From IMG/VR virus record IMGVR_UViG_3300015607_000582, positions 32,001 through 96,000 of that record: DNA of 64,000 nucleotides. One strand, given 5' to 3'. The notes under the pieces are model-generated. The model saw nothing but the letters and a program-made list of their open reading frames with translations, was not told the origin of the DNA and did no database searches. Source of the stretch: a virus. Its lineage: Duplodnaviria > Caudoviricetes. The position numbers and the translations under genes are program-made. Below, one piece after another: positions 7,767 through 59,723 of the stretch; position 1 is the first letter of the stretch; each line of letters begins with the position of its first letter.

Positions 7767-8147
7767 TCAGTACGAGTAGGACGCCCGGTCGTCCCAGACC
7801 TTCGTGTAGGTGTCGACGCCATCTGCATGCGTCACCGACGTGATGGTGCCCGACTCGAAGAGTCGCGTGATGCGCCAGACCGGGGCAGATGTGGCCGAAT
7901 CGGCTGCGGCCTCGCCGATGTACGACAGGGTGGGGCTCACCTCGTCGATCTTGACGTCGTACTTGGCCGTGGCAACAGCGACGTCGACCGGCAGGGCGGT
8001 GACGGCCAAGAGGGCCGCGTCGCGCTTTTCGAGTGGAATCCACTCCAACTCGTGGTCTACGAGCACCACGGACTCCCCATCGGGGATGAGCAGCCGGTTG
8101 GGCAGGATGTAGTCCTTGCCGGTGTTGTTGGTGACCAAGACCGGCAT
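7767..8147 (-). CDS. Putative virion protein (126 aa, ends WDDRASYSY)
   Basis: True start MPVLVTNN at 8147 overlaps the upstream stop. YIGEA...WRI...WDDR..Y motif. Confidence 0.7.
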   Translation of the reverse strand: MPVLVTNNTGKDYILPNRLLIPDGESVVLVDHELEWIPLEKRDAALLAVTALPVDVAVATAKYDVKIDEVSPTLSYIGEAAADSATSAPVWRITRLFESGTITSVTHADGVDTYTKVWDDRASYSY

Positions 8148-9196
8148 CAGTCGCCCTTCACGTCCCAGCCGTCGATGGAAATCTCGACCTTGACGGTGGG
8201 GCCGTCCTGCTTTGTCGGCTCGCCCTTGTCCGACTTGCCGCCCAGCTCCTTGGTGATCGCGGCCTTGGCCTTTGCGACCAGATCCGGCTCCGCGAGACCG
8301 TCGACCTCGACCTCGCCATTGGTGACCGTGCCGCCGACGATCTCGGTGTCGTCGATGTCGTCGGTCAGCTCCTTCCCGTTCTCGGCGAGCAGGTCCTTGA
8401 GGATCTGGCGATGGCGGTTCTGGTGCGACCATTCGACCAGCTTGACCTCGCCCATGTAGTAGACGAACGACCAGTCAGGATCAGTCTCCGCAGCCACCTT
8501 GGCCCAGTGCTCGGGCAGGGTGTCAGGTGCCTCGTCCTGCCCCTTGGGCATGAGCTTGACGTAGTCGCCCTGAGTGTCGGGAATCGTGTGTCCAGAGTCG
8601 AGCTTGATGCGCAGTCGGTACTGATAGGGCTGCGGGATGACGTTGGGGATGACCTTCGGCTCCTTGAGCACCTGCTCGACGGTGCCCATCTGCTCCCGAC
8701 CCGCCGGGCCGTCGTAGATCACGCGGTCGCCTTCGCGAAAGAGCGCCCCGTCGCGGGGAGCGTATCGGCGCACGAAGTAGACGGAGTCGCCAACCCGCGC
8801 CTCGCCGCCGTAGGTGCTTGTGCCGAGGTGAATCCCCCGTGCGCTGGAGAGGTTGTGCTCCCACTCGTCGAACTCGTGGCCGGAGGTCTGATCCTCCAAG
8901 CGGTACACGATACCCAGCGGCGTCTCGACGGGGCCCGCGACGACCTTGGCAGGGCCGGTGCGCCCAGCGACGAGGTCACCGATGCGGTACTTGCCGACGA
9001 CATCGCTCTGGGCGGGAGGCTCCACGGTCTCGACGGACGTAGCCGTAGCCCAGATGTGTCCGCCACCGGGCAGGTGAAGGGCCTGACGGCCAGCCACACG
9101 CTTGCCGAGCGTGCCGAGGCGGCCGTGGTGCGGCGAGCCCGGATCGTTGACGTAGGCGGATGTGCGCTGCATGGATGAGCGGTGGAAGGTAGCCAT
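8147..9196 (-). CDS. Multidomain protein with SH3/KOW-like segments; possible internal head protein
   Basis: Repeated (Y/F)R.GD.V segments; RTSA, KRVAG and KVAA linkers. Class III motif overlaps its ATG. Confidence 0.65.
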   Translation of the reverse strand: MATFHRSSMQRTSAYVNDPGSPHHGRLGTLGKRVAGRQALHLPGGGHIWATATSVETVEPPAQSDVVGKYRIGDLVAGRTGPAKVVAGPVETPLGIVYRLEDQTSGHEFDEWEHNLSSARGIHLGTSTYGGEARVGDSVYFVRRYAPRDGALFREGDRVIYDGPAGREQMGTVEQVLKEPKVIPNVIPQPYQYRLRIKLDSGHTIPDTQGDYVKLMPKGQDEAPDTLPEHWAKVAAETDPDWSFVYYMGEVKLVEWSHQNRHRQILKDLLAENGKELTDDIDDTEIVGGTVTNGEVEVDGLAEPDLVAKAKAAITKELGGKSDKGEPTKQDGPTVKVEISIDGWDVKGD

Positions 9197-49726: not shown

Positions 49727-52700
49727 CTACTGCTTGGGCCTGAAGGGGTCACCCGCCGCGCTCAGCGCAGCGATGTCGTCGTAGTTGACCCACCCGGTGG
49801 CGTAGTGCGGATGGAGCTTGCCGACATCGTTGAGCGGGATGTGGACGAGCACCATCTTCATGAACGGCTCGATGTCGACCACCTCGCCCCGGCGTCCGGG
49901 CTGCAGATCCGCATACTGGTCGCGCCACTCGGGTGCGCCATTCGGGCCGCTGTCGGCGTTGACGCGCTGCTGCAGCTCCGGGTGCCACCCAAGGTCGAGC
50001 GTCCGGTAGATGGGCAGACCGTCCTGCGACTCGCCGATGGGCTGCGCGCCCGGAATCGGGATCTTGCCCCCGCGCACCTCCAGCGTCACGGGCTTGCGGA
50101 GCTGGAAGATGGCCTTCTGGTTGCTCTTGCGCGACATGGCGTACCACGCCTCGACATCCTGCTCCGCCCCGAAGTGGAACTCGGAGCGACGCAGGGCCGT
50201 GACCGAGGCGAGCACCGCCACCTTGATGCGCTCGTAGCGGTACGGGTCGCCCGCCATCTTCCTGACCTGCGCCTCGTAGTGCTCATGCGCGAAGCAGACC
50301 GGCACCTCGTCCCCTCCGCCGAACCGCATGATCGTCTTGGCGGGCTCGCCGCAGTGACGACACACGGGGGCCGCGACCTTCGAGTACAGGTGCGCCGGGT
50401 GGGTCGGAGACCAAGCGATGGCGTTGGCTGGAGCGCCCGGCTCGTCCACCCGCCGAGCACTGGGCTCGATGAGCGGCTGCTGGGGGCGCGGCCCCTCGGG
50501 GTGCTCAGACAGGTTGTGCTCGGGCACCCACCGCTGGCCCTTGGACGTGTCGTCGTAGCGAACCTCGTACTGCCAGTACGAGCCGACCGCGTGGGCCGAG
50601 CCATTGTTCGTCGGATCGAGCCACCTGCGCTCGACGACCACTCCGGGCTCGCGCAGGTAGCCCACGTAGGTGTGCGCGCCGACCTCGAACTTGGGCGGCG
50701 TGGTCAGGTGCGACAGCGGCACCTGCATGTGCTTCACGCCCGGCAGGGTGGCCGCCGCAGGGGCGACTGCATTCCCGAGCGGATAGTCGGAGGCGGGTCG
50801 GCCATTGACGGCAGGGAAGTTGACCAAGAACGGGTTGTGCGGATCCTGCTCGACGCCCTCCAGCGGCTCCTCGCCCCACCTGCGATGTCGGACGTCAGTC
50901 AGGTTCGACTTGAGCAGCTCGAAGCCGTGCAGGATGCTGTTGTAGAATCGTTCGAGGTGCGTGCCGGTGTCGAACTGCTGGTTGTTCTGCTCGCGGGCAT
51001 GGGCACTGACACTCCGCACCGCACCGGCAGCGACGTTCAGCTCGCCGACGATGCGCGTGGCGATCCGGATCAGCTCCGGTCGAAGCGGATCGCCGCGCTC
51101 GTCGGTCGGGGACGTCAGGAAGCGACGCTGCAGATTGCGGGCCATCTCCTCAAGCGAGCCCGCCGTACCGTCGGGATTGCTGAAGCCCCAGTTGCGACCG
51201 CCGTGAGCCTCCATGTTGCAGCCCGCCGTGGCGAGAGCCGCGATGGCCTGAGACAGCTCGTCCTCGTCGTAGTTGACGCCCCAACTCGACTCCTCGGTGC
51301 CACTCAGTTCAAGGATGTGCTCGACCAGCTCCTCCTCGACCTTCTCCCAGTCGATCTCATCGACGTAGTGCGCTTCTTGGTAGTCGCGCGTCTCGCCGTC
51401 GTCGTCGTACTCGTACTCGCTGCTGGCGGTGAAGCGGTCGAAGTCGTCCTTGAAGTCGATGGCGTCGTCGAGGTCGGTGATGCTGAACGACTCGCCGTCG
51501 TGCCAGTAGTCGCCGTAGTGCTCGCGCCGCTCCTCCAGCCGCCGCTCCTCGTCGTAGCCGAACTCGTGATGGTCGTAGGCGGCGCTGTCGTTCTCCTCTG
51601 ATCGGTCGACGGTGATGTCGTACTTGGCGGCGACGTCGTTGTAGAAGCGCACCATGATGTCGGAGACAGGGTTCTTGCCGGAGCGTTCGACGCTGCGCTC
51701 GTCGAGCGGCTGGTTGTCGTTGGCGCGCACCTCCAGCGGCACCCACTCGTTCGCGTAGGGAAAGCCGCCACGCCTCCCGCGCAGACCGATGAACAGCGAC
51801 GCGAGCGGTCGACCCGACTGACTCCGCAGGCCGACGGCGATCTGGTTGCCGTCGTAGATCGGCGCACGGTACTGCTCGCCGTATGAGCTGTCAGAATCGG
51901 CGTAGCAGTGGCTGAGCATCTCACCATGGCGCTCCATGGAGTCGCTGTCGTTCGGGTCGAGGACGACCGCGTAGTTGCCCTTCTTGTCCTCCCAGACCTT
52001 CTTGTCCTCGTCGTCCCAGTAGATCGAGTTCGTCTCGGGGTCGAGGCCGATGCTCTCCAGCTCCCCCACCCACGAGCGCAAGCTGGAGAAGTCATCGCCC
52101 TTGGGGTCGAAGCCGCCTCCGCCAACCTCGCGGTCGCCGTACATCCGCTGCCACTCGATGAAGGGGATCGCGTTGTCGAGCGTCGAGAGGTCGTAGCTGT
52201 TGACGGGGTTGAGGCGCTTGGCCTTCACCTCCTCGGCGATCCACGGGTAGATGGTCGCTGCCTCGGGATCCAGACCCTCGATGAGCTGGGAGATGACCTG
52301 CAAGTTCGTCAGCCCGGCACCCTCGCCGTCGTACTCGCTGCCGCGCTTGACCATCTTCGGCGGCTTCGACCACCCCTCGACACGGAGCTGCGCGATCCAG
52401 TAGGCGTCGCCGATGATCTCCCTGATCTCCTCGGTCAGGGGAACCTTGCGCTCCTGTCCGTCGCCGAGATCGAGGAACAGCTCATCCGAGAGCGGGATCG
52501 CGCGCAGGCTGTGGCGGACTTTGCTGACACGCCAGAGGTTGCCGGGGGAGATGGTGAAGTGGGCGTCGTTGTCCCAGCCCTCATCGGAGTCTGGCTGGAC
52601 GCCCGCCTCGCGCATGATCGCATCGAAGAGCTTGACGTACTCGCCGCCCCATCGACGCCAGATGAACTCGGGCGACGTGTTGCGCACGACGTCGCCCTCC

Positions 52701-52951
52701 ATGATCCGACGCGGGTCGAACGGCTCCTTGGCCCACTTCTGGGGCTCAAGCTGCTTGAGCAGCGACTCGCGCTTGCGCTCCGCGTACTCGGGGTCGACCG
52801 CCGCCGTGCGACGAAGACCAGACGCCAGCGAGCGCATGACGTAGTCGTGAACCGGGTTGGTTCGATGCACCTCGCCGCAGTGGGGGCACGGGCGCTCGTC
52901 GTCGCCACCGATCCAGTTGGCGAGCGTGCCTTCGCTCCATCCGTCGATCAT
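49727..52951 (-). CDS. Large multidomain (polyvalent-like) protein with PcfJ-like domain
   Basis: 1074 aa; HGEMLSHCY...LRSQSGRP...EVRANDNQ, acidic tract, SH3-like and Zn-binding segments. Confidence 0.75.
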   Translation of the reverse strand: MIDGWSEGTLANWIGGDDERPCPHCGEVHRTNPVHDYVMRSLASGLRRTAAVDPEYAERKRESLLKQLEPQKWAKEPFDPRRIMEGDVVRNTSPEFIWRRWGGEYVKLFDAIMREAGVQPDSDEGWDNDAHFTISPGNLWRVSKVRHSLRAIPLSDELFLDLGDGQERKVPLTEEIREIIGDAYWIAQLRVEGWSKPPKMVKRGSEYDGEGAGLTNLQVISQLIEGLDPEAATIYPWIAEEVKAKRLNPVNSYDLSTLDNAIPFIEWQRMYGDREVGGGGFDPKGDDFSSLRSWVGELESIGLDPETNSIYWDDEDKKVWEDKKGNYAVVLDPNDSDSMERHGEMLSHCYADSDSSYGEQYRAPIYDGNQIAVGLRSQSGRPLASLFIGLRGRRGGFPYANEWVPLEVRANDNQPLDERSVERSGKNPVSDIMVRFYNDVAAKYDITVDRSEENDSAAYDHHEFGYDEERRLEERREHYGDYWHDGESFSITDLDDAIDFKDDFDRFTASSEYEYDDDGETRDYQEAHYVDEIDWEKVEEELVEHILELSGTEESSWGVNYDEDELSQAIAALATAGCNMEAHGGRNWGFSNPDGTAGSLEEMARNLQRRFLTSPTDERGDPLRPELIRIATRIVGELNVAAGAVRSVSAHAREQNNQQFDTGTHLERFYNSILHGFELLKSNLTDVRHRRWGEEPLEGVEQDPHNPFLVNFPAVNGRPASDYPLGNAVAPAAATLPGVKHMQVPLSHLTTPPKFEVGAHTYVGYLREPGVVVERRWLDPTNNGSAHAVGSYWQYEVRYDDTSKGQRWVPEHNLSEHPEGPRPQQPLIEPSARRVDEPGAPANAIAWSPTHPAHLYSKVAAPVCRHCGEPAKTIMRFGGGDEVPVCFAHEHYEAQVRKMAGDPYRYERIKVAVLASVTALRRSEFHFGAEQDVEAWYAMSRKSNQKAIFQLRKPVTLEVRGGKIPIPGAQPIGESQDGLPIYRTLDLGWHPELQQRVNADSGPNGAPEWRDQYADLQPGRRGEVVDIEPFMKMVLVHIPLNDVGKLHPHYATGWVNYDDIAALSAAGDPFRPKQ

Positions 52952-55900
52952 CGCCAGTTCTCCTCGAAGTTGCTCATGTCAGTCGACCGCTCAGCGATCA
53001 GGTTGTCAGGGCCGACCCATCCCTCGTGACCGTCATCAAACTGGACGTGGTAGACGGTGCCACCCTCGAAGAGGCCGTCGGGCTCATGCTTGACCTCGAT
53101 CACCCGGCCCGGCTTGTCGATGACCTCCGGCCAGTCGGGGATCTTGGCACGGGCATCTGGATGCGTGACGAGGCGGTAGATGACGCGATCTCCGCCCTTG
53201 AAGCGGTAGTCCGTCGCGCGCAGCTCCTCGGGCACCTCGTGGATGCGGCGGTTGTACTCGGCTCGATGAAGTTCGGTCCACGCCTGCCGCTCGTCCTCGT
53301 CCATCTCGCCATCAAGGTAGCGGCGGTTCTGCTCGGCCATGAAATCATCGACTCTGCCGTCGGCACGCCAGTAGTCTTCGTACTCGTCGCCCACAGACGA
53401 GTACGTGCCGGGGAACTGGGTCGGGTTGCCGGGGTTCTCCCAGCCGGGCGGGTTCGCGCCGGGGATCGACGTCGGGTTGGTCGGCGGCACCGGCTGACCG
53501 CCGGGCGGCGCGGTGATGTCGAACAGCTTGAACTGGCCGGGGCCGGGGCCCTTCTTGCGCTGCGGCGGGGTGAACGGGTTCGCCGGGCGCGGCGCGATGG
53601 GGCCGGGCGGCGGGCCCGCAGGCTGCGCTGGCATCTGCTGCTCGATCTGCTCGCGCATGTCCGGCAGCGAGATGATCGGCGGCTTGTCGTCGGGGCTGAA
53701 CGAGCGCGGGAGCTTGTCGAGATCGAGGCCGAGGTCGGCCCGCTGCTCGTCCATGCCGGGAATCTGGCCCTTGTTGCGCTCGAACAGCTCGTCCTCCGAG
53801 AACGGGGTGACGCGCTGGCCCGGCGCGGGCTTGAAGGCGGGGTCGAGCGCCTTCAGCTCCTCGATGCCTTCGAGCGGATGCGACTTGCTCGCCCAGTACA
53901 GCGCCCGGACGTGAGAGCACGGGCGGCCCTCCAGCCGCTTCCACTTGCGAGTGCGCCCCCACGCATACTGCGACCACTTGCAACCGCAGTGCCACATGTC
54001 GATGCTGGACGACCTCGGGTCAGTCGACTCGATCTCGACCTCGTAGTCGCCATGGTCGCCGATGACATGGCCCTGCGTGAGGATGCCGGGCTTGGTGGGG
54101 TGAATGCCGTGGTAGTTGACGGTGACCTTGCCATCGCGAATCAGGCGCATGGACTTCTGCATGGTGTTCTCGGCCACCACGAGGCGCATCCCGAGCCCGA
54201 GCCCCGCGACCTTCGCGATGTGCTCCCCGGTCAGCTTCTCGATTGCGGGATGGAGCCCCGCGTTGGCGATGGCCTTGTACGCCACGTTGGCGTCGCTGAA
54301 GTCTCCGAGCCCGGCGCGCTGTGCCTCCTGCCGCGACTTGTGGAGCTGGTGCCAGAACTCGCGTGCCGCATCGGGCGCGTACATGAGCAGCAGCTTCATC
54401 TTGTCGACGACCATCTCGGCGTAGGCGCGCAGCGAGGGGCGCACCTCCTTCGCCATCGACTTGTCCGGCGGCACGATCCACTCGCGCTTGTCGAGGTCGT
54501 AGCCCGAGCGCAGGCCGGGCTTGTACAGGTCCTCGCGGCGGATGTCAGCCGGAACCACGTACGCCTGCAGCGGGATGTCAGTTCCCGGCAGCTTGGTGCC
54601 GTCGACGCTGCCGACCATCACCTTGACGAGGTCGGCCCGAACCCAGTCGGGCATCCGGGCGGCGTCGACGAAGAGGCTGACGTCGAAGTCGGACGGGCCG
54701 GTGTCATCGTACTGGTACGTCGTCAGCGAGCCGGTCAGGACGAGCGACAGGTACTGGTCGGGGTCAGGCCATCCGGCGGCGACCATGGCGTCGGTGATGG
54801 TCTTGCGGACGAAGTCGATGATCTCGGGCTTGACGTCAGGGGTCGCCGACGACGGGTTGTCGAAGACGTGCGAGCTGAGCTGGTCGCGCACCGGGTCGAG
54901 GATGTTCGCAGTGCGCCGCTGGCGCAGGTGCGGGTAGTCGTCAAGGATCGCCTCGTCAATCGCATCGAGGTCAATACCTCGCTGAAGCGCATCCTTGACG
55001 AAATCCTCGTGCGTCCAGAGCCACGACTTGTCTGGCACGACGCCCGATACGCTGCCGACATCCTCGGCTTCGTTCTGGTACCAATACCCAGTGTCGTCCC
55101 ACCCCTCGTTGATGGCGTGGTTCGCGTATGCGTCGCCCGAACCTCCGTGCCAGTCCCCCATGTCCCCGCCGTTGAACGGATACCCCATCTCGTGAGCGTC
55201 CGCCATATCGTCTTCTCGATGGGGAGAGACACGAACGGGGATGAAGGTCGGCTTGGTGTGCCAGTCCTTGGGCCCCTTGTGCCATGTGTCCGCAGTCTCT
55301 GCGCGCAGCGCATCGAGCGGCTCGTGCGGCTGCCACTTGAGGCTGCTGGCATTGCCGCCAGCGAGATTCGCAGTCATCGCTTCGTACGCCGCCTTCTGCG
55401 TGCCGAAGTGGATGACGCCGTCCCCCATCTCCCCGGCCGGGGTCGCGTGCCAAAGCGTGTCGGGGTGACGCTCGAACTCCCACTTGGTCATCTCATGGGG
55501 CTCGCGCTCATCATGGCGAAGGCTGCCCGAGCCGGGCTCTACACGATGCTCCCAGTCCTCCCAGAGCGCGTGCGCCTCGGCGATCATGCGCTCGGTCTCG
55601 TGGTACGGGTCGATCAGGTCGCCCGTGGCGAGTGACACGAGTACGCGGTCGCGGTCGACCGACGCGAGATGGCGCTCGGCGGTCTCGAAGCCGATCATCG
55701 CCACGCGCACGAGCGCGCCCGGCCCGCAGTGACGGGTGACGACCTCGCGCACGGTGTCGGGCTCGACGCCTTCGACGGCGATGTGGAGGTCGCCGGGCTG
55801 CATGGGCCGTCGCTGGACGACGTCGCGGACGGTCTCGCCTGCGACGTAGACGGTGCCGTACTCCAGCAGCTCCTGCGCGGGCTCCCAGAGCGGATCGCAG

Positions 55901-56226
55901 GCGAGGAGCTTGATGCACTTGGCCGCGATGTTCGACGACGCGAGGCGGTACCGCTCCTCGCCGACCAGCCGGTAGATGTGCTTGATCTCCAGCTCCGGGT
56001 GCATGGTGTACCAGAGCCGCGTCAGGTGGAACACCGTCCACGGCATGTCCGTGTCCGTGCGGATCTGCAGATTGCCCTTCGGGTCGTAGACGCCTTCGAC
56101 GATGCCGCCGGGGTTGAACTTACCGGAGATGTCTGCGTGCCGCTCGCCGGGCTGGCCGACGTAGACGCGGTCGCCCTCGATGTCGTAGATCATCGGGATG
56201 GGGCCATGCAGCTCGACGTCAGGCAT
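52948..56226 (-). CDS. Large multidomain protein: degenerate CCA/PAP-like head, ART-like domain, Pol-beta nucleotidyltransferase, SWIM finger, SH3-like domain
   Basis: VAGETVRD..DLHIAV; LWHAT..IHFGT..Y.NEAED; LTGSL...SDFDV; CGCKW...PCSH. Confidence 0.75.
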   Translation of the reverse strand: MPDVELHGPIPMIYDIEGDRVYVGQPGERHADISGKFNPGGIVEGVYDPKGNLQIRTDTDMPWTVFHLTRLWYTMHPELEIKHIYRLVGEERYRLASSNIAAKCIKLLACDPLWEPAQELLEYGTVYVAGETVRDVVQRRPMQPGDLHIAVEGVEPDTVREVVTRHCGPGALVRVAMIGFETAERHLASVDRDRVLVSLATGDLIDPYHETERMIAEAHALWEDWEHRVEPGSGSLRHDEREPHEMTKWEFERHPDTLWHATPAGEMGDGVIHFGTQKAAYEAMTANLAGGNASSLKWQPHEPLDALRAETADTWHKGPKDWHTKPTFIPVRVSPHREDDMADAHEMGYPFNGGDMGDWHGGSGDAYANHAINEGWDDTGYWYQNEAEDVGSVSGVVPDKSWLWTHEDFVKDALQRGIDLDAIDEAILDDYPHLRQRRTANILDPVRDQLSSHVFDNPSSATPDVKPEIIDFVRKTITDAMVAAGWPDPDQYLSLVLTGSLTTYQYDDTGPSDFDVSLFVDAARMPDWVRADLVKVMVGSVDGTKLPGTDIPLQAYVVPADIRREDLYKPGLRSGYDLDKREWIVPPDKSMAKEVRPSLRAYAEMVVDKMKLLLMYAPDAAREFWHQLHKSRQEAQRAGLGDFSDANVAYKAIANAGLHPAIEKLTGEHIAKVAGLGLGMRLVVAENTMQKSMRLIRDGKVTVNYHGIHPTKPGILTQGHVIGDHGDYEVEIESTDPRSSSIDMWHCGCKWSQYAWGRTRKWKRLEGRPCSHVRALYWASKSHPLEGIEELKALDPAFKPAPGQRVTPFSEDELFERNKGQIPGMDEQRADLGLDLDKLPRSFSPDDKPPIISLPDMREQIEQQMPAQPAGPPPGPIAPRPANPFTPPQRKKGPGPGQFKLFDITAPPGGQPVPPTNPTSIPGANPPGWENPGNPTQFPGTYSSVGDEYEDYWRADGRVDDFMAEQNRRYLDGEMDEDERQAWTELHRAEYNRRIHEVPEELRATDYRFKGGDRVIYRLVTHPDARAKIPDWPEVIDKPGRVIEVKHEPDGLFEGGTVYHVQFDDGHEGWVGPDNLIAERSTDMSNFEENWR

Positions 56227-59158
56227 GGGGCTCTCCGTTCAGTCCGATGTGCGATGGCGGGAACAGCTCGGGCGGGCGCGGGTCGCCCCACACGTCGCGC
56301 TCAGGGCCGACGTAGTCGCCAACGTGGACTGCCGGTCGGCCGATCTTGTCGCGGAACTCCGCCATCGGCCCCATCCTGCGCACGACGGTGACGGGAACGT
56401 GCGTGTGGCCGAGGCTCTCTGCCATCTCAAGGCGGTGGTGGCCCTCGCCGAGGTAGGCATGGCCGTCGGCAGCACTCCACTCCAGCATGAGCGGCTGGTT
56501 GATGCCGTGCTCGGCGATGTGGTCGCGGAGGCGCGCGAAGCTGACATCGTCGTTGATCCTGTCGCCTCCCGTCCGGTCGAACTCCGCGAACCGCCTGACT
56601 TCGGAGATCGGCATCATCTCGGCGAACTGCATCTGCCATCCCGGCTTCTCGCTGTACTGCTGCCACTTCGGGGTCTCGCCACGGTCGATGGACGACCAGT
56701 CGGGCTCCTGCGCCCATGGCGCGGCCGTCTTCGGCCGTCGGATGCGCTCCGGAAGCTGGCTCCCGTACTGCTCGCGCCAGTCGCCATGATCCCAGTCGGT
56801 GACGTAGCTCGGGTGGATGGGGCCACGGTGCGTCATGCCCGCATCGTGGGGCACACGCGGCTCGTCGTGCCAATCCTCCTCGGGAGGGTAGGGGTCGGCG
56901 TAGTTGCGCAGGCTCTCGTGGAGATCCTCGGGCAGGTGCGGCCAGAGCCGAATCGCCTCGGGGATGCGAACCCGATCCTTGCTCGATCCGGGCAGCTCCT
57001 CCGGCGGCACCTCGCCGTGCTGTGTGACCGCGTCCCAGATGTCATGCGTGGGGTCGTACCACTCATCCCATCCGTGCGTGCCGCGCTCCAGCTCGTGAGG
57101 CTCGTAGTCGTCCTCCTCCTGCGCGACCTGCTTCCACTCGTCGCGCTCGTCCTCTGGGCGGCGCGTGTGGTGGAGGATGTCCGCGAAGTGCTCGGGGTCG
57201 CCCTGAATGCGGCTGGGGTCGAGGCCCTGCATCTTGACGATGACGGGGTCGTTGAGCTTGTTGTTGATCGCCATGGTGCCCGCCCACTGCGCCGCCGTCT
57301 CGTAGTGCGGGAACACGTAGACGTGATCGGTCAGGCGCGGCACCCACTCGACCGTGTGCGAGGGATCCTGCTGGAACCTCGCGGGCAGGATGCCGCTCTG
57401 CTGGATGACCGGCAGGTTGGAGCGATCCGTGACGTGGTACCACTCGTCGTTGAACCGACCCATGCCGACTGCAGTCCAGCCCGCGACGACGCCGAGCTGA
57501 TCCTGCTTGCGCTGGTAGTCGACGAAGTTGTTGGGGAAGGTGGCGTCCATGTTGACGTAGGGGTCGACCTCGCTCGGCAGCGGGTCGGCTCGCGTGTGCT
57601 CGGCGACAGTGTGCTCGCGCCATGCCCCGTAGTCGGGGAAGTGCTCGCCGCACTCGGAGCACTCGTACGCACCGCCGTTGGGCTCGCCCTCGTCGGGGCC
57701 GTCGATGCTCCATCCGGGCGGCGGCATCTGGTCGAACTGGTCGGTGCCCGCCCACTCCTTGTTGCGCCAGTCCTTGACGCCGGGGTTGTTGGGGCCGACG
57801 CCGAAGCCTGCGGCAGTCGTCTGCGACCACGCGACGGCGTCCGGGGACATGTGGCCCCAGTCGTGCTCGACGGCCCCGAAGACGCGACGTGCCTCTTCGA
57901 GCAGGGCGGAGGCGACGCCCGTCCGACGGTACTCGGGCTCAACCTGCACTCCGCCGATGACCCACTGCCCCTGATCGCCCTTCGCGACCGACAGGATGCC
58001 CACGGCCGTCTGCCCCGAGTAGGCGATGAAGTGGTTGAGGGTCTGCTTGATGGCGAAGGACGGCGGCAGCGGCATGGCCGTACGAACGCGACCCTCGACC
58101 TGTCGCATGCGGAAGTTGTAGAGCACCTCGTTGAACGAGCTGTCGATCAGCCACGCGAGCGGGTCTTCGACCTCGGTGACCGTGTAGTCGACCCCGTTGA
58201 GGCGGTAGACGCGGCCGACCTGCGGCACGCCCTCGCTGTCTGGCGTCACCTGCGCGGCGGGGGCGGCCGGGTTGATCGGCTGCACGCCCTCGCCACGGCA
58301 GTTGCAGTCGCCGCGCTCGCACTTGCGGAGCTGCGCCTTGGCGTTCCGGTCGCTACGGTAGTCGCTCGGCGTCGCGGCGACGTTGACCTTGTGCCCATTC
58401 TGCACGAAGCGGAAGTGGCCGCCCGGCAGCGGTACCAGCTCCCACCCGGCCTTCGTGGCCTCGGGGAATCGCTGGAGGATCTTGCGGTTGGCTACGCGCT
58501 CTCGCGGAAGGCGGCGCTCTTGACCTGAGCCTCGCGCAGGCTCTCCGGCGTCGGCTGCCAGCCATCCGTCACGCCGCACGACGGGCAGGGGAAGGTCTCG
58601 CCCTCCCGGTGCGCCACCCGATGCCCGCAGCTCTGGCACGGACGCCTCCAATGACCGCTCGCCGTCTGCACGACGGTCGGGTCGCCCTTCTCGAACTTCT
58701 GCATGGATGGCTTCATGGTCACTCCTCAGTGTGCCCGTTTTCTCCAGATGAGGCAACCCCTGCTCGTCGATCAGCCCCTTGTAGTTCCATCCGTAGGTCT
58801 TGGCGGCCTTCTTGAGCGCCTTCTCGACGATGTCCAGCTTCATGTTGCTCGACAGCAGCTCGAACTCGGCGTCCCAGCGGTCGAACAGGTGCAGGATCCC
58901 CTTGGCGTGGGGCCGTGAGAAGTGCGAATGGCTCGCCATCTCCAGCATGAGCTGGTGATCTGCGGTCGGGTGGATCAACACCTGATCCTTGCCCACGACG
59001 ACCCAGTTGTAGGGCGTCGGCTCGTGGCTGGGCTCGACCCGCGTGTAGTCAGGGCGAGGAGCGAGCGGCTGAACCTTGGGGCGGGCGTCGTTGGCCGCCT
59101 GCGGCTCCTCGGCGGGGTAGGCATCGCTACCGGAGGTGTCAGAGGTTCGGTGCGTCAT
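56219..59158 (-). CDS. Large multidomain protein: HicA-like, GNAT, C2H2 finger, ART-like, ParB-like
   Basis: GGHFRF...TPSD.R; VQVEPEYRRTGVASAL; CSEC...H....H; YHVT...LPVIQQSGI.P; GINQPL...EGHHRL. Continuity across 58490-58730 is uncertain. Confidence 0.7.
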   Translation of the reverse strand: MTHRTSDTSGSDAYPAEEPQAANDARPKVQPLAPRPDYTRVEPSHEPTPYNWVVVGKDQVLIHPTADHQLMLEMASHSHFSRPHAKGILHLFDRWDAEFELLSSNMKLDIVEKALKKAAKTYGWNYKGLIDEQGLPHLEKTGTLRSDHEAIHAEVREGRPDRRADGERSLEASVPELRASGGAPGGRDLPLPVVRRDGWLAADAGEPARGSGQERRLPRERVANRKILQRFPEATKAGWELVPLPGGHFRFVQNGHKVNVAATPSDYRSDRNAKAQLRKCERGDCNCRGEGVQPINPAAPAAQVTPDSEGVPQVGRVYRLNGVDYTVTEVEDPLAWLIDSSFNEVLYNFRMRQVEGRVRTAMPLPPSFAIKQTLNHFIAYSGQTAVGILSVAKGDQGQWVIGGVQVEPEYRRTGVASALLEEARRVFGAVEHDWGHMSPDAVAWSQTTAAGFGVGPNNPGVKDWRNKEWAGTDQFDQMPPPGWSIDGPDEGEPNGGAYECSECGEHFPDYGAWREHTVAEHTRADPLPSEVDPYVNMDATFPNNFVDYQRKQDQLGVVAGWTAVGMGRFNDEWYHVTDRSNLPVIQQSGILPARFQQDPSHTVEWVPRLTDHVYVFPHYETAAQWAGTMAINNKLNDPVIVKMQGLDPSRIQGDPEHFADILHHTRRPEDERDEWKQVAQEEDDYEPHELERGTHGWDEWYDPTHDIWDAVTQHGEVPPEELPGSSKDRVRIPEAIRLWPHLPEDLHESLRNYADPYPPEEDWHDEPRVPHDAGMTHRGPIHPSYVTDWDHGDWREQYGSQLPERIRRPKTAAPWAQEPDWSSIDRGETPKWQQYSEKPGWQMQFAEMMPISEVRRFAEFDRTGGDRINDDVSFARLRDHIAEHGINQPLMLEWSAADGHAYLGEGHHRLEMAESLGHTHVPVTVVRRMGPMAEFRDKIGRPAVHVGDYVGPERDVWGDPRPPELFPPSHIGLNGEPHA
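58492..58716 (-). CDS. Nested alternative-frame Zn-ribbon protein (74 aa)
   Basis: GAGGAG RBS, strong GC3 bias, CQSC...CPSC. Confidence 0.65.
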   Translation of the reverse strand: MKPSMQKFEKGDPTVVQTASGHWRRPCQSCGHRVAHREGETFPCPSCGVTDGWQPTPESLREAQVKSAAFRESA

Positions 59159-59329
59159 GAGGCTTCGACGATTAGGTGTGAGCCCACGACAGGCACTGCG
59201 CGGTCCCCTGCGCCCGAGGCGGCCACGCTGGCCGAAGAGGTCGCGCCCCGGACACAGGGAACCCGCAGTACGAGACCTCGATCACCTCCGCCATCGGACG
59301 ACAACCTCTTCATGGATTAGGCAGAGCAG

Positions 59330-59497
59330 TCAGTCGCTCGCGGGGGCGTCGTCGACCGTCTGGCCCACGCCTCGCCTCGCGCGCTTGGGATGCACATCGC
59401 ACCGAAGGCACACGTATGCAGGCAGCTTCTGCCGCGAGGTACTCTCGGCAGCGAGTTGCCGGACGGAGCCGCACAGACGACAGGTGGCCTCATCCAC
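59330..59497 (-). CDS. Small Zn-finger protein
   Basis: GTG start; CRLC...CLRC. Confidence 0.45.
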   Translation of the reverse strand: MDEATCRLCGSVRQLAAESTSRQKLPAYVCLRCDVHPKRARRGVGQTVDDAPASD

Positions 59498-59723
59498 GCT
59501 TGGATGAACCGAAGCGACCCGGCGAGCCACCCGCGCCCTGAACAGTGCCAAGGCCGAACCCGGATCGGTAGTCGCGCTTGTGCGGCGTGTCCAGCCCCAC
59601 ACCAGCATCATCAACGCCAGCGCAGCTACAGGGAAGCATGAGCGATTCGGAAACCTCATCGAGCCTCAGCTCCCTCTCCGTGACGAACCCACAGCTCTCG
59701 CATCGGTAGTCGTAGACCGGCAT
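59490..59723 (-). CDS. FmdB-family zinc ribbon protein
   Basis: MPVYDYRCESCG. Confidence 0.75.
   Translation of the reverse strand: MPVYDYRCESCGFVTERELRLDEVSESLMLPCSCAGVDDAGVGLDTPHKRDYRSGFGLGTVQGAGGSPGRFGSSKRG

What the first reader, a model, noticed from the sequence alone, without database searches (positions are those of the whole stretch)
49727..59158. Three ~1000-aa effector polyproteins with a recurring (R/K)-(T/V)-A linker at domain borders
Seen: concatenated domains resembling HicA RNase (~58315-58490), GNAT (~57820-58075), C2H2 finger (~57600-57670), ADP-ribosyltransferase (~56815-57445 and ~55035-55460), ParB (~56390-56580), Pol-beta nucleotidyltransferase (~54250-54900), SWIM (~53900-53995) and PcfJ (~51715-51960). 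A short motif precedes most domains: ERVA-N (HicA), VRTA-M (GNAT), QTTA-A (finger), GVVA-G (ART), PKTA-A (ParB), RRTA-N (NTase), AKVA-G (SWIM), RRTA-A and SKVA-A (1074-aa protein). It also occurs in 8147-9196 (KRVA-G, AKVA-A). A class III-like motif lies upstream (59165-59176). Established: polyvalent proteins of phages and conjugative elements combine such domains, and large-phage prohead proteases cut internal head proteins at short motifs. Inference: these are late-made, virion-packaged polyproteins cut into separate host-takeover enzymes that are injected with the DNA.
Basis: partly seen in the sequence, partly recalled or inferred. Interest (0 to 1): 0.8.

Follow-up and report, generated by a model that had tools for sequence, protein, structure and literature searches.

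The report
Phage enzyme polyproteins with cut-site-like joints
A 143-kb phage related to the Bxz1/I3 mycobacteriophages has three neighbouring giant genes that string many small enzymes together, joined by a short Lys/Arg-x-Ala peptide that also marks its head proteins. This peptide is probably a cutting signal for releasing packaged enzymes, but no cutting has been measured.

Summary
Three translationally coupled minus-strand ORFs (979, 1092 and 1074 aa) are modular "polyvalent" proteins. GNAT, C2H2, ParB/sulfiredoxin, a Pol-beta-type nucleotidyltransferase and SWIM are confirmed. The HicA, PcfJ and two ART calls are not confirmed.

Strict [KR][TV]A occurs 9 times against 2.8 expected. It is at expectation in the non-structural proteome and enriched in the structural block. 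At least six of the nine copies lie at module borders defined independently by homology or by the fold model. Across about 60 metagenomic relatives the same joints carry K/R-x-(A/S/G), whichever modules flank them. A co-occurring strain swaps a module exactly at one joint.

The portal gene lies 5 kb upstream. In I3 and two distant relatives, homologous modules sit beside the prohead protease and the capsid gene.

My best reading (about 0.5) is capsid-packaged cargo cut at these joints by the prohead protease. The main rival (about 0.3) is uncleaved intracellular multi-enzymes.

An earlier follow-up in this scan reported the same motif in this genome's head proteins. One claimed joint (ERVA-N) lies at the end of an off-frame stretch that is overprinted by a nested zinc-ribbon ORF.

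The parts
56219..59158 (-). Polyprotein 1 (979 aa, P0001). Order: N-domain, overprinted linker, HicA-like, small beta domain, GNAT, C2H2 module, ART-like 'WYHVT' module, ParB/sulfiredoxin.
58733..59158 (-). N-domain (res 1-142), the conserved first module of this protein family. It ends in K140-T-G142.
   Evidence: AF2 is confident over 43-139. All 15 aligned homologues end in a basic residue followed within four residues by a small C-terminal residue. No known fold was identified.
58499..58732 (-). Stop-free stretch of the long ORF (res 143-220) whose codon bias fits the +1 frame. It is predicted disordered.
   Evidence: GC3 is 0.56-0.66 in frame 0 against 0.82-0.92 in frame +1; pLDDT is 30-36. 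The same text occurs in an independent assembly, P0004.
58492..58716 (-). Nested +1-frame ORF with GAGGAG-N5-ATG, encoding a 74-aa CxxC...CxxC zinc-ribbon protein. Its stop codon overlaps the R221-V-A223 codons.
   Evidence: The single SNP in this stretch, in a related strain, is synonymous in this frame and changes E to K in frame 0.
58490..58498 (-). Joint R221-V-A223|N, before the HicA-like module.
   Evidence: Only P0004 shares this module.
58076..58084 (-). Joint R359-T-A361|M, before the GNAT module.
   Evidence: In P0006 the GNAT module follows QKTA|T.
57812..57823 (-). Joint Q446-T-T-A449|A, before the C2H2 module. It is also the breakpoint of a natural module swap.
   Evidence: In 18 of 20 relatives K/R-x-A/S/G stands at this place. 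A contig of run X4 is near-identical down to nt 57814 and then diverges. P0004 reads TTGRVA|GMTR here.
57482..57493 (-). Joint G556-V-V-A559|G, after the C2H2 module.
   Evidence: The same GVVA stands in P0005, P0006 and P0007, followed by different modules.
56735..57481 (-). 'WYHVT' module (res 560-808), possibly of the ADP-ribosyltransferase superfamily (Tpt1/DarT-like).
   Evidence: Invariant H, Y and E columns. Profile hits to Tpt1 at E 0.04-0.46 and to DarT at 0.096. Low pLDDT. No Pfam hit.
56723..56734 (-). Joint P809-K-T-A812|A, before the ParB/sulfiredoxin module.
   Evidence: HSP borders at 813-821. P0010 has RRPKRTA|A at the same place, followed instead by the N-terminus of a P0002-like protein.
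52948..56226 (-). Polyprotein 2 (1092 aa, P0002). Order: N-domain 2 with a degenerate CCA-enzyme head, an unknown module, NTase, SWIM, a Pro-rich linker, a C-terminal beta domain.
55543..56226 (-). Res 1-228: a conserved beta domain plus a truncated CCA-adding-enzyme head. GGxVRD reads GETVRD and DxD reads DLH.
   Evidence: pLDDT 66-96. Foldseek hit to 3h37 at prob 0.99. 15 homologues keep the full PolyA_pol+HD. Sequences.
54907..54918 (-). Joint R437-R-T-A440|N, in a disordered linker.
   Evidence: pLDDT is below 50 over 428-440, and the fold starts at 441. Thirteen HSP borders fall at 438. K/R at P3 with a small P1 occurs in 47 of 59 distinct homologues.
54214..54906 (-). Nucleotidyltransferase module (res 441-671) with an intact GS...DxD motif.
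54205..54213 (-). Joint K672-V-A674|G.
   Evidence: The fold ends at about 673 and the chain is disordered from 674. In 13 homologous ORFs the protein ends exactly at GEHIA. 12 of the 21 that continue do so with K/R-x-A/S/G.
53797..54204 (-). SWIM-containing module (res 675-810), homologous to I3 gp102 residues 362-479.
49727..52951 (-). Polyprotein 3 (1074 aa, P0003). Order: short leader, large unknown module, middle region, zinc ribbon, widespread C-terminal module.
52802..52810 (-). Joint R48-T-A50|A.
   Evidence: Homologues align from residues 37-55. P0069 and P0074 start their ORFs at this point.
50372..50380 (-). Joint K858-V-A860|A, before a CxxC zinc ribbon.
   Evidence: P0034 begins M-PECRHC, aligned to residue 862.
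50216..50224 (-). Joint K910-V-A912|V, before the C-terminal module.
   Evidence: The best-matched stretch of most of the 48 hits starts between residues 912 and about 985 and runs to the C-terminus.
59159..59176 (-). CCTAATCGTCGAAGCCTC directly before the ATG. It is a variant of the repeated CCTAA-NN-GGTGAAC motif found before many structural genes.
   Evidence: A chance match is not excluded.

Best explanation
Shown. The three genes form one translationally coupled operon of polyvalent proteins in a Bxz1/I3-related phage found in wastewater metagenomes. Each protein is a string of autonomous modules:
- an N-terminal family domain;
- GNAT;
- a C2H2 finger;
- an ART-like module;
- ParB/sulfiredoxin;
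- a degenerate CCA-enzyme head;
- an active-looking Pol-beta nucleotidyltransferase;
- SWIM;
- zinc ribbons;
- a widespread C-terminal module.
The modules are joined by short linkers that carry K/R-(T/V/x)-(A/S/G) followed by a small residue.

Inferred. This tripeptide is the recognition site of the phage's prohead protease. That protease is itself the N-terminal domain of an 819-aa fusion protein that carries seven copies of the motif.

Inferred. The polyproteins are loaded into the procapsid, cut into separate enzymes during head maturation, and ejected with the DNA.

Inferred. The enzyme repertoire of the family is CCA-adding enzyme with HD, LigT/2H phosphoesterase, a Tpt1-like module, the NTase, GNAT, ParB, Fic and a methyltransferase. 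This points to early RNA/tRNA repair and to modification of host proteins or nucleic acids, that is, counter-defence and takeover.

Shown for the swapping, inferred for the reason. Because every module carries its own cut site, modules can be swapped, fused or split at the joints without loss of function. This explains the shuffling seen.
For: 1. The motif is in excess here and in the structural block but not elsewhere: 9 observed against 2.8 expected; 29 against 16.6; 36 against 35.0. The pattern is the same in relatives: 1.5x in effector-like ORFs, 2.25x in structural-like, 0.6x in non-structural-like.

2. Six of the nine copies lie at borders with strong independent support (P0001 810; P0002 438 and 672; P0003 48, 858 and 910). 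These borders come from HSP ends, ORF ends and ORF starts of homologues, and AF2 domain limits. The chance of six of nine copies falling within about 5% of the length is 2e-6.

3. The joints persist whatever the neighbouring modules. This holds before the C2H2 module in 18 of 20 relatives and before the NTase in 47 of 59. After the NTase, the motif appears in 12 of the 21 ORFs that continue, while 13 ORFs simply end there.

4. Gene borders and joints are interchangeable. P0010 fuses a P0001 module to the P0002 N-terminus through KRTA|A.

5. A co-occurring strain replaces the module exactly at the QTTA codons, with 5 differences in 1487 nt upstream of that point.

6. The motif persists in a low-GC relative (L056). 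This argues for selection at the protein level.

7. Head link.
- The protease fusion has 7 copies, the 266-aa protein has 3 and the 1133-aa protein has 4.
- I3 gp94, gp102 and gp103 carry 4, 5 and 5 copies against 1.0, 1.3 and 2.4 expected.
- The portal gene is 5 kb upstream, and this arrangement is syntenic in at least six relatives.
- In I3, L047 and L056 the SWIM module (with the NTase module in L047 and L056) lies just upstream of the protease fusion and the capsid gene.
- Modules are shared with the 1899-aa protein of the structural region.

8. A variant of the structural-gene motif precedes the operon.
Against: - There are no proteomic, N-terminal or expression data, and the literature searches found none for Bxz1/I3 virions.
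- The immediate neighbours here and in relatives are nucleotide-metabolism genes: dNMP kinase, phosphatase, ThyA and RNase H.
- The basic-x-small tripeptide is kept in 9 of 14 loci where the NTase module starts its own ORF. It may therefore belong partly to the module, or mark a very short leader.
- P2 is variable, and some joints lack the basic residue (QTTA, GVVA, QMTA, VHEA).
- In phage G001 the head proteins use K-T/V-A, but the effector joints read KQA, KHA and MTA, so no co-variation is seen.
- Pfam does not place the protease domain in a family. Only a PHROG names it.
Confidence: 0.5

Rival explanations
1. The proteins are uncleaved, intracellular multi-enzyme proteins. They are made with the nucleotide-metabolism genes and act inside the infected cell, for example in RNA repair or anti-defence. 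On this reading K/R-x-A is a conserved module cap, or a trace of how cassettes recombine, and not a protease site.
For: - The neighbours are dNMP kinase, phosphatase, an exonuclease-like gene, ThyA and RNase H, here and in relatives.
- The tripeptide is retained on stand-alone NTase ORFs.
- Iyer et al. cite polyvalent proteins that are delivered uncleaved, such as N4 vRNAP, ArdC and TraC1.
Against: - A module cap would not be shared by unrelated folds, nor by head proteins including the protease fusion.
- The motif after the NTase occurs only when another module follows.
- It lies in predicted disordered linkers.
- It is kept across phages of differing GC content, which argues against a DNA-level scar.
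Confidence: 0.3
2. The proteins are cut at these joints, but by something other than the prohead protease inside the capsid. Candidates are a host protease, another phage protease, or cleavage after ejection. Packaging would then be optional.
For: - The operon lies outside the protease/capsid cluster.
- The motif in the effectors (KQA, KHA, MTA in G001) is looser than in the head proteins.
- Iyer et al. discuss processing after delivery for polyvalent proteins.
Against: - No peptidase domain was found in the three proteins.
- The excess of the same tripeptide in the head-region proteins of this phage and of I3 points to the head protease.
Confidence: 0.12
3. The motif is a chance or compositional artefact of a 65% GC genome rich in Ala, Arg, Thr and Val.
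For: - The raw density is only about 2x the composition expectation.
- One copy lies inside a fold.
Against: - Per-protein shuffles and the non-structural control remove composition as an explanation.
- The copies lie at module borders.
- The motif is conserved at the joints of about 60 homologues.
Confidence: 0.03

Closest known systems
Polyvalent proteins of phages and conjugative elements (Iyer, Burroughs, Anand, de Souza, Aravind 2017, PMC5512222)
   Same: They are large polypeptides combining ParB, GNAT, ART, SWIM, PcfJ, Fic, methyltransferase and similar modules. Their architectures vary strongly between relatives, and they are predicted to be delivered with the DNA.
   Different: That paper proposes processing by built-in MPTase (zincin-like) peptidase domains. 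A term search of its text found no mention of 'linker' or of CCA enzymes. No such peptidase domain is present here. This family is also centred on RNA-end enzymes (CCA enzyme, LigT, NTase).
T4 gp21 prohead protease with internal proteins IPI-III, Alt and other head proteins
   Same: A head protease cuts many head and cargo proteins at a three-residue motif, including short N-terminal leaders. The cargo includes a host-modifying enzyme that is injected.
   Different: The T4 motif is (L/I)-x-E, and usually one leader is removed. T4 cargo proteins are single enzymes, not strings of modules. This comparison rests on my own knowledge and on PMC9026906, which I listed but did not read.
phiKZ gp175 and SPN3US gp245 prohead proteases with their ejection proteins (PMC5694885, PMC7411985, PMC10052503)
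   Same: Many head and ejection proteins are processed at a short consensus. In those phages this was shown by semi-tryptic peptides in virion mass spectrometry.
   Different: Their motif is (S/A/G)-x-E. The phage lineages are unrelated. Here cleavage is only inferred, and the joints separate independent enzyme modules.
Bixzunavirus I3/Bxz1 gp102 and gp103 (NC_067270)
   Same: gp103 carries the same prohead-protease domain at its N-terminus. gp102 shares the SWIM module with P0002. Both carry R/K-T/V-A|G/A in excess, and they lie between the portal and capsid genes.
   Different: They are annotated only as hypothetical proteins. The N-domain, NTase, GNAT and ParB modules of the present proteins gave no match in I3 at these thresholds.
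Phage P1 DarA/DdrB packaged anti-restriction proteins
   Same: They are large head-packaged proteins that are proteolytically processed before packaging, and DdrB has a ParB-like domain (as summarised in PMC5512222).
   Different: The operon is different and no shared motif is known. Processing there is ascribed to an MPTase domain.

Membership tests
Polyvalent proteins (Iyer et al. 2017) | Several unrelated enzymatic or binding domains in one polypeptide of a phage or conjugative element | tested here: met
   GNAT, C2H2, ParB/Srx, NTase and SWIM were confirmed. The genome is a phage.
Polyvalent proteins (Iyer et al. 2017) | Domain order and content vary strongly among close relatives | tested here: met
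Polyvalent proteins (Iyer et al. 2017) | Packaged in the capsid and delivered with the DNA | not testable with these tools
   Only context is available: the portal gene 5 kb upstream, and head-operon homologues in I3, L047 and L056.
Substrates of a prohead maturation protease (T4 gp21 / phiKZ gp175 type) | A short consensus recurs in the head proteins, including the protease's own polypeptide | tested here: met
   7 copies in the 819-aa protease fusion. Structural block: 29 against 16.6. Effectors: 9 against 2.8. Non-structural: 36 against 35.0.
Substrates of a prohead maturation protease (T4 gp21 / phiKZ gp175 type) | Sites are accessible, in linkers or leaders rather than inside folds | tested here: met
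   P0002 437-440 and 672-674 lie at the edges of confident domains. P0001 sites lie in segments with pLDDT below 50. One copy (P0002 174) is inside a fold.
Substrates of a prohead maturation protease (T4 gp21 / phiKZ gp175 type) | Cleaved polypeptides are observed in virions | not testable with these tools
   No virion proteomics for this phage group were found.
Substrates of a prohead maturation protease (T4 gp21 / phiKZ gp175 type) | Expressed with the late/structural genes | tested here: inconclusive
   A variant CCTAAT...CGAA copy of the structural-gene motif stands 18 nt before the ATG. No RNA data are available.
HicA toxin (PF07927) | Profile match to the family | tested here: not met
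   No Pfam hit at E up to 5 on the isolated segment. Only phrog_2089, of unknown function.
HicA toxin (PF07927) | dsRBD-like alpha-beta-beta-beta-alpha fold with a catalytic His | tested here: inconclusive
   Predicted helices at 219-236, strands at 240-261 and a helix at 266-281, at pLDDT 45-52. A GGH is present.
ADP-ribosyltransferase superfamily | H-Y-E (or R-S-E) catalytic pattern on the ART fold | tested here: inconclusive
   Invariant H13, Y52 and E94 in five homologues. Tpt1 at E 0.04-0.46 and DarT at 0.096. No confident model. For the second claimed ART (P0002 255-397) nothing was found.
PcfJ (PF14284) | Profile match to the family | tested here: not met
   No hit for P0003 or its homologues. 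The only leads are an Atlas cluster at 0.87 and a weak BLAST to P0028.
Pol-beta-type nucleotidyltransferases (ANT/AadA, CD-NTase, MNT, TENT5) | G-S ... D-x-D catalytic motif, and the NTase fold with a helical domain | tested here: met
   Invariant G59, S60, D73 and D75 in A4. pLDDT 72-97. Foldseek hits to 7uy4, 6e0k, 6xz0 and 6w36 at E 3e-3 to 0.1.
CCA-adding enzyme (PF01743 + HD) | GGxVRD ... DxD head plus body and HD domains | tested here: not met
   P0002 keeps only a head that reads GETVRD ... DLH, and Pfam finds nothing. 15 homologues have the full enzyme. The head fold is still recognised (3h37).
GNAT acetyltransferases | Pfam score above the gathering cutoff, and the GNAT fold | tested here: met
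   28.1 bits against 20.7; Z 8-10.
ParB N-terminal / sulfiredoxin fold | Profile and fold match | tested here: met
   phrog_26387 at 7.5e-6. PF02195 in three homologues. 6ky4 at Z 10.2 and 6sdk at prob 1.0.

The most novel reading that the evidence does not exclude
The head protease's three-residue code may work as a plug-and-play cargo system. On this reading, any enzyme module flanked by K/R-x-Ala can be added to a polyprotein, loaded into the capsid, released as a separate enzyme and injected. Counter-defence and RNA-repair modules could then be swapped between co-occurring strains exactly at the cut-site codons, as seen in run X4. A junk linker that hosts a nested gene would simply be excised.
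Probability: 0.35. Interest if true: 0.75.

Novelty: new variant of a known kind. Interest (0 to 1): 0.6.

Why it matters
If the joints are cut sites, this phage group delivers a changeable set of enzymes as capsid cargo encoded by a simple, readable code.

- That would give a rule for predicting injected proteins in Bxz1-type mycobacteriophages. These phages are cultured and can be studied genetically.
- It would explain how polyvalent proteins can shuffle so freely.
- It would point to tRNA/RNA-end repair as an early counter-defence.
- It would add a new specificity (basic-x-Ala) to the few known prohead-protease codes.

Tried and rejected
- Megablast of the 9.4 kb against phage records: no match.
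- tblastn of P0003 against phages: no match.
- Single-protein scans of IMG/VR: none for P0001 and P0003, one locus for P0002. An N-domain profile scan gave one locus.
- The whole-family alignment A2 was too gappy for a metagenome scan, so the NTase module alignment was used instead.
The contigs of P0004-P0007 could therefore not be fetched, and the nested-ORF region could be compared at DNA level only through laid contigs.
- PDB sequence searches with P0001, P0003 and the NTase profile: nothing useful.
- Pfam on eight isolated segments: no HicA, ART or PcfJ.
- hhalign of the N-domain against the P0002 N-terminal domain: no relation (prob 0.4).
- The N-domain fold was not identified, because the lists were filled by GNAT and ParB.
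- The Atlas searches gave only sub-0.9 leads.
- Co-variation of P2 between head proteins and effector joints in G001: inconclusive.
- Pfam did not classify the protease domain.
- Sigma-70 and terminator scan of the operon: nothing on the coding strand.
- Sequencing runs: no RNA holder listed.
- Literature searches for virion proteomics or N-terminal data on Bxz1/I3: none found.
- I considered a sequencing frameshift as the cause of the off-frame stretch. I rejected it because an independent assembly (P0004, run X4) has the same frame structure.
Full report
**What is there**

The window is bases 32001-96000 of a 142,928-bp, 65% GC virus record in which nearly every gene lies on the minus strand. 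Three ORFs fill 49727-59158:
- P0001, 979 aa, 56219-59158;
- P0002, 1092 aa, 52948-56226;
- P0003, 1074 aa, 49727-52951.

Their stop and start codons overlap by 8 nt and by 4 nt, and GC3 is 0.87-0.89, so they are real genes in one operon. No sigma-70-like promoter and no minus-strand terminator lies inside the operon.

The phage is related to the Bixzunavirus (Bxz1/I3) mycobacteriophages:
- The capsid protein is 51% identical to I3 gp105.
- The portal is 41% identical to gp96.
- The N-terminal prohead-protease domain of an 819-aa protein is 41% identical to the start of gp103.

Near-identical DNA occurs only in wastewater metagenomes from two studies.

**Domains**

Confirmed:
- GNAT (28.1 bits against a cutoff of 20.7; Z about 10).
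- A C2H2 finger whose Cys and His residues are nearly invariant in relatives.
- ParB/sulfiredoxin.
- A nucleotidyltransferase at P0002 441-671. It has invariant GS...DxD, pLDDT 72-97, and Foldseek hits to ANT/AadA, CD-NTases, TENT5 and MNT.
- SWIM (CxC...CxH; above threshold in seven homologues).

Further points on P0002 and P0001:
- The N-terminus of P0002 is a truncated CCA-adding-enzyme head with a degenerate active site (GETVRD...DLH). Fifteen homologues keep the whole enzyme with its HD domain.
- The first claimed ART (P0001 560-808) has conserved H, Y and E columns and sub-threshold profile hits to Tpt1 and DarT, so it is plausible but unproven.

HicA, the second ART and PcfJ were not confirmed.

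Across relatives the family also carries LigT/2H phosphoesterase, Fic, methyltransferase, PcfJ and YunG modules. This is the repertoire of polyvalent proteins (PMC5512222), here with an RNA-end-repair flavour.

**The motif**

Strict [KR][TV]A occurs three times in each protein.

| Protein class | Observed | Expected (per-protein shuffles) | P | With small next residue: observed / expected |
|---|---|---|---|---|
| Three effectors | 9 | 2.8 | 0.002 | 8 / 0.9 |
| Structural block | 29 | 16.6 | 0.004 | 18 / 6.2 |
| Other proteins (26,312 aa) | 36 | 35.0 | 0.45 | 14 / 12.6 |

The set of "small" residues was chosen after seeing the data, so that P value is generous. The contrast between classes is the real result.

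In relatives, effector-like ORFs show 1.5x, structural-like ORFs 2.25x and non-structural-like ORFs 0.6x.

**Position of the motif copies**

Borders were defined without reference to the motif.

- In P0002, homologues' alignments start at 437-440 and end at 671. Thirteen homologous ORFs terminate exactly at GEHIA (residue 671), and three begin with this module.
- The model is confident for 441-673, below pLDDT 50 for 428-440, and disordered again from 674.
- In P0001, K810-T-A812 separates the ART-like module from ParB. In P0010 the same KRTA|A is followed instead by the N-terminus of a P0002-like protein, while P0002 itself starts MPDVELHGPIP without the motif.
- In P0003, R48-T-A50, K858-V-A860 and K910-V-A912 coincide with the points where homologues begin. 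P0034 starts M-PECRHC at residue 862, and the best-matched stretch of most of the 48 hits starts between residues 912 and about 985 and runs to the C-terminus.

Six of nine copies falling at well-supported borders that occupy about 5% of the length has a binomial probability of 2e-6. One copy (P0002 R174-V-A176) lies inside a confident fold and is probably chance.

**The joints in relatives**

- Before the NTase module, 59 distinct homologues have K/R at P3 in 47 cases and A/S/G/T at P1 in 58.
- Before the C2H2 module, 18 of 20 have K/R-x-A/S/G three residues ahead of the conserved GIGEINPG. This holds whether the upstream module is the N-domain, a ParB-like module, the WYHVT module or GNAT.
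- All 15 aligned N-domains end with a basic residue followed within four residues by a small C-terminal residue.
- Homology breakpoints over 288 ORFs carry the strict motif in 13.7% of module-start windows against 3.0% of random windows.

The true consensus is therefore K/R-x-(A/S/G) followed by a small residue. P1 is the most constant position.

**A swap caught in nature**

A 9988-nt contig of run X4 matches 57814-59300 with five differences and then diverges. Position 57814 is the first base of the Ala449 codon of Q-T-T-A|A. Its product, P0004, reads TTGRVA|GMTR, followed by a module that in P0007 sits after GVVA|G. A second contig of the same run matches 56219-57448 without a difference. 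Two haplotypes that differ by one module, with the upstream break exactly at a joint and the downstream one about 11 residues past the GVVA joint, therefore coexist.

**Link to the head**

- The 819-aa protein carrying the prohead-protease domain (phrog_18299, E 1e-19) has seven copies. The 266-aa protein next to it has three, and the 1133-aa protein has four.
- I3 gp94, gp102 and gp103 have 4, 5 and 5 copies against 1.0, 1.3 and 2.4 expected, nearly all followed by G or A.
- The gene at 64391-66670, just beyond the window, is the portal (phrog_2833, E 2e-155).
- The order portal, phosphoesterase, dNMP kinase, phosphatase, exonuclease-like gene, polyproteins is conserved in at least six relatives.
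- In I3 the order is portal, ThyX, RNA ligase, gp102 (SWIM module of P0002), gp103 (protease fusion), gp104, capsid protein.
- In L047 and L056 an NTase-SWIM protein lies 4-5 kb upstream of the protease fusion and the capsid gene.
- Relatives' effector blocks contain segments up to 67% identical to this phage's 1899-aa structural-region protein.
- CCTAA-NN-GGTGAAC precedes many structural genes. A variant, CCTAATCGTCGAAGCCTC, abuts the ATG of P0001, although a chance match is not excluded.

**Interpretation**

The simplest account of a three-residue signal with the following properties is a protease site read by the head protease:
- it is shared by unrelated modules and by head proteins;
- it is placed in linkers;
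- it is kept across phages of differing GC content (the low-GC relative L056);
- it is absent as an excess from non-structural proteins.

This is the logic of T4 gp21 and of phiKZ gp175 / SPN3US gp245. I give this reading about 0.5. The steps of packaging, cutting and ejection are inferred, not shown.

Against it:
- The immediate neighbours are nucleotide-metabolism genes.
- Nine of 14 stand-alone NTase ORFs still start M-x(0-3)-K/R-x-S/A-NILDP. This fits either a module-intrinsic cap or a very short cleaved leader.
- In G001 the head proteins use K-T/V-A while the effector joints read KQA, KHA and MTA.

**An oddity in P0001**

Codons 143-220 have the codon bias of the +1 frame. In that frame a GAGGAG-N5-ATG opens a 74-aa CxxC...CxxC ORF (58492-58716) whose TAG overlaps the R221-V-A223 codons. 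Frame 0 has no stop there, and the HicA-like module has no start codon of its own. The long ORF must therefore be read through about 80 residues of predicted disordered text.

An independent assembly has the same structure. The one SNP in the stretch is synonymous in the +1 frame and changes E to K in frame 0. If K140-T-G142 and R221-V-A223 are cut sites, this filler would simply be excised. That is speculation.

**Relation to earlier notes**

An earlier follow-up in this scan (e1-5745437) reported the same motif in this genome's head proteins and read it as the cutting code of the protease. I re-derived the head-protein counts independently and extended the motif to the three effector genes. 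Note e1-5745472 flagged the nested ORF, and I confirmed it.

Noticed in passing
window 58492-58716 (minus), inside P0001 codons 143-223: A complete +1-frame ORF with its own GAGGAG-N5-ATG encodes a 74-aa double-CxxC zinc ribbon. The enclosing frame stays open but has off-frame codon bias. The HicA-like module that follows has no start codon of its own.
   Followed up: partly
just beyond the window end: window coordinates 64391-66670 (genome 96391-98670), minus strand: This is the portal gene (phrog_2833, E 2e-155; 41% identical to I3 gp96). It lies about 66 kb from the protease/capsid cluster, so the head genes are split by a large non-structural block.
   Followed up: yes
window 59176, 7754, 2292, and genome-wide (16 copies, 15 on the minus strand): The motif CCTAA-NN-GGTGAAC stands 30-40 nt before many structural genes. 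A CCTAAT-NNN-CGAA subclass places an ATG exactly 18 nt downstream at two sites (59176, and window coordinate -2732, 2732 bases before the window start).
   Followed up: partly
window 55543-56226 (P0002 res 1-228): The CCA-adding-enzyme part is truncated after the head domain and has lost its catalytic DxD (it reads DLH). Fifteen homologues keep the full PolyA_pol + HD enzyme.
   Followed up: partly
window 57448-57814; run X4: Two haplotypes in one wastewater sample differ by replacement of the C2H2 module. The upstream breakpoint falls on the Ala449 codon of the QTTA joint.
   Followed up: partly
P0002 around res 930-945 (window about 53390-53440), and many homologues of the P0003 C-terminal module: A second recurring linker, ...P-G-(T/A)-(Y/F)-S-S..., precedes the C-terminal module in many relatives (for example P0035, P0040, P0052). 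In P0002 it occurs as FPGTYSSVGDEY.
   Followed up: no
window 59330-59659 (minus), in the 564-nt gap upstream of P0001: A possible small ORF with a CxxC...CxxC pattern that my GC3-based gene call did not pick up.
   Followed up: no
genome 11427-12503 (capsid gene); L056 17894-18856; L001 16593-17594: The capsid proteins begin ...RKAVA|SADY, ...RKATA|SSDY and ...RFAKA|SDDY. This is a conserved Ala|Ser-x-Asp-Tyr after an 8-17 residue leader, and it could be a maturation cut.
   Followed up: no
genome 23217-28916 (1899-aa protein): Segments of this structural-region giant protein (res 350-608, 841-1172, 1590-1692) recur inside the effector blocks of relatives (L006, L027, L040, L045, L055).
   Followed up: no
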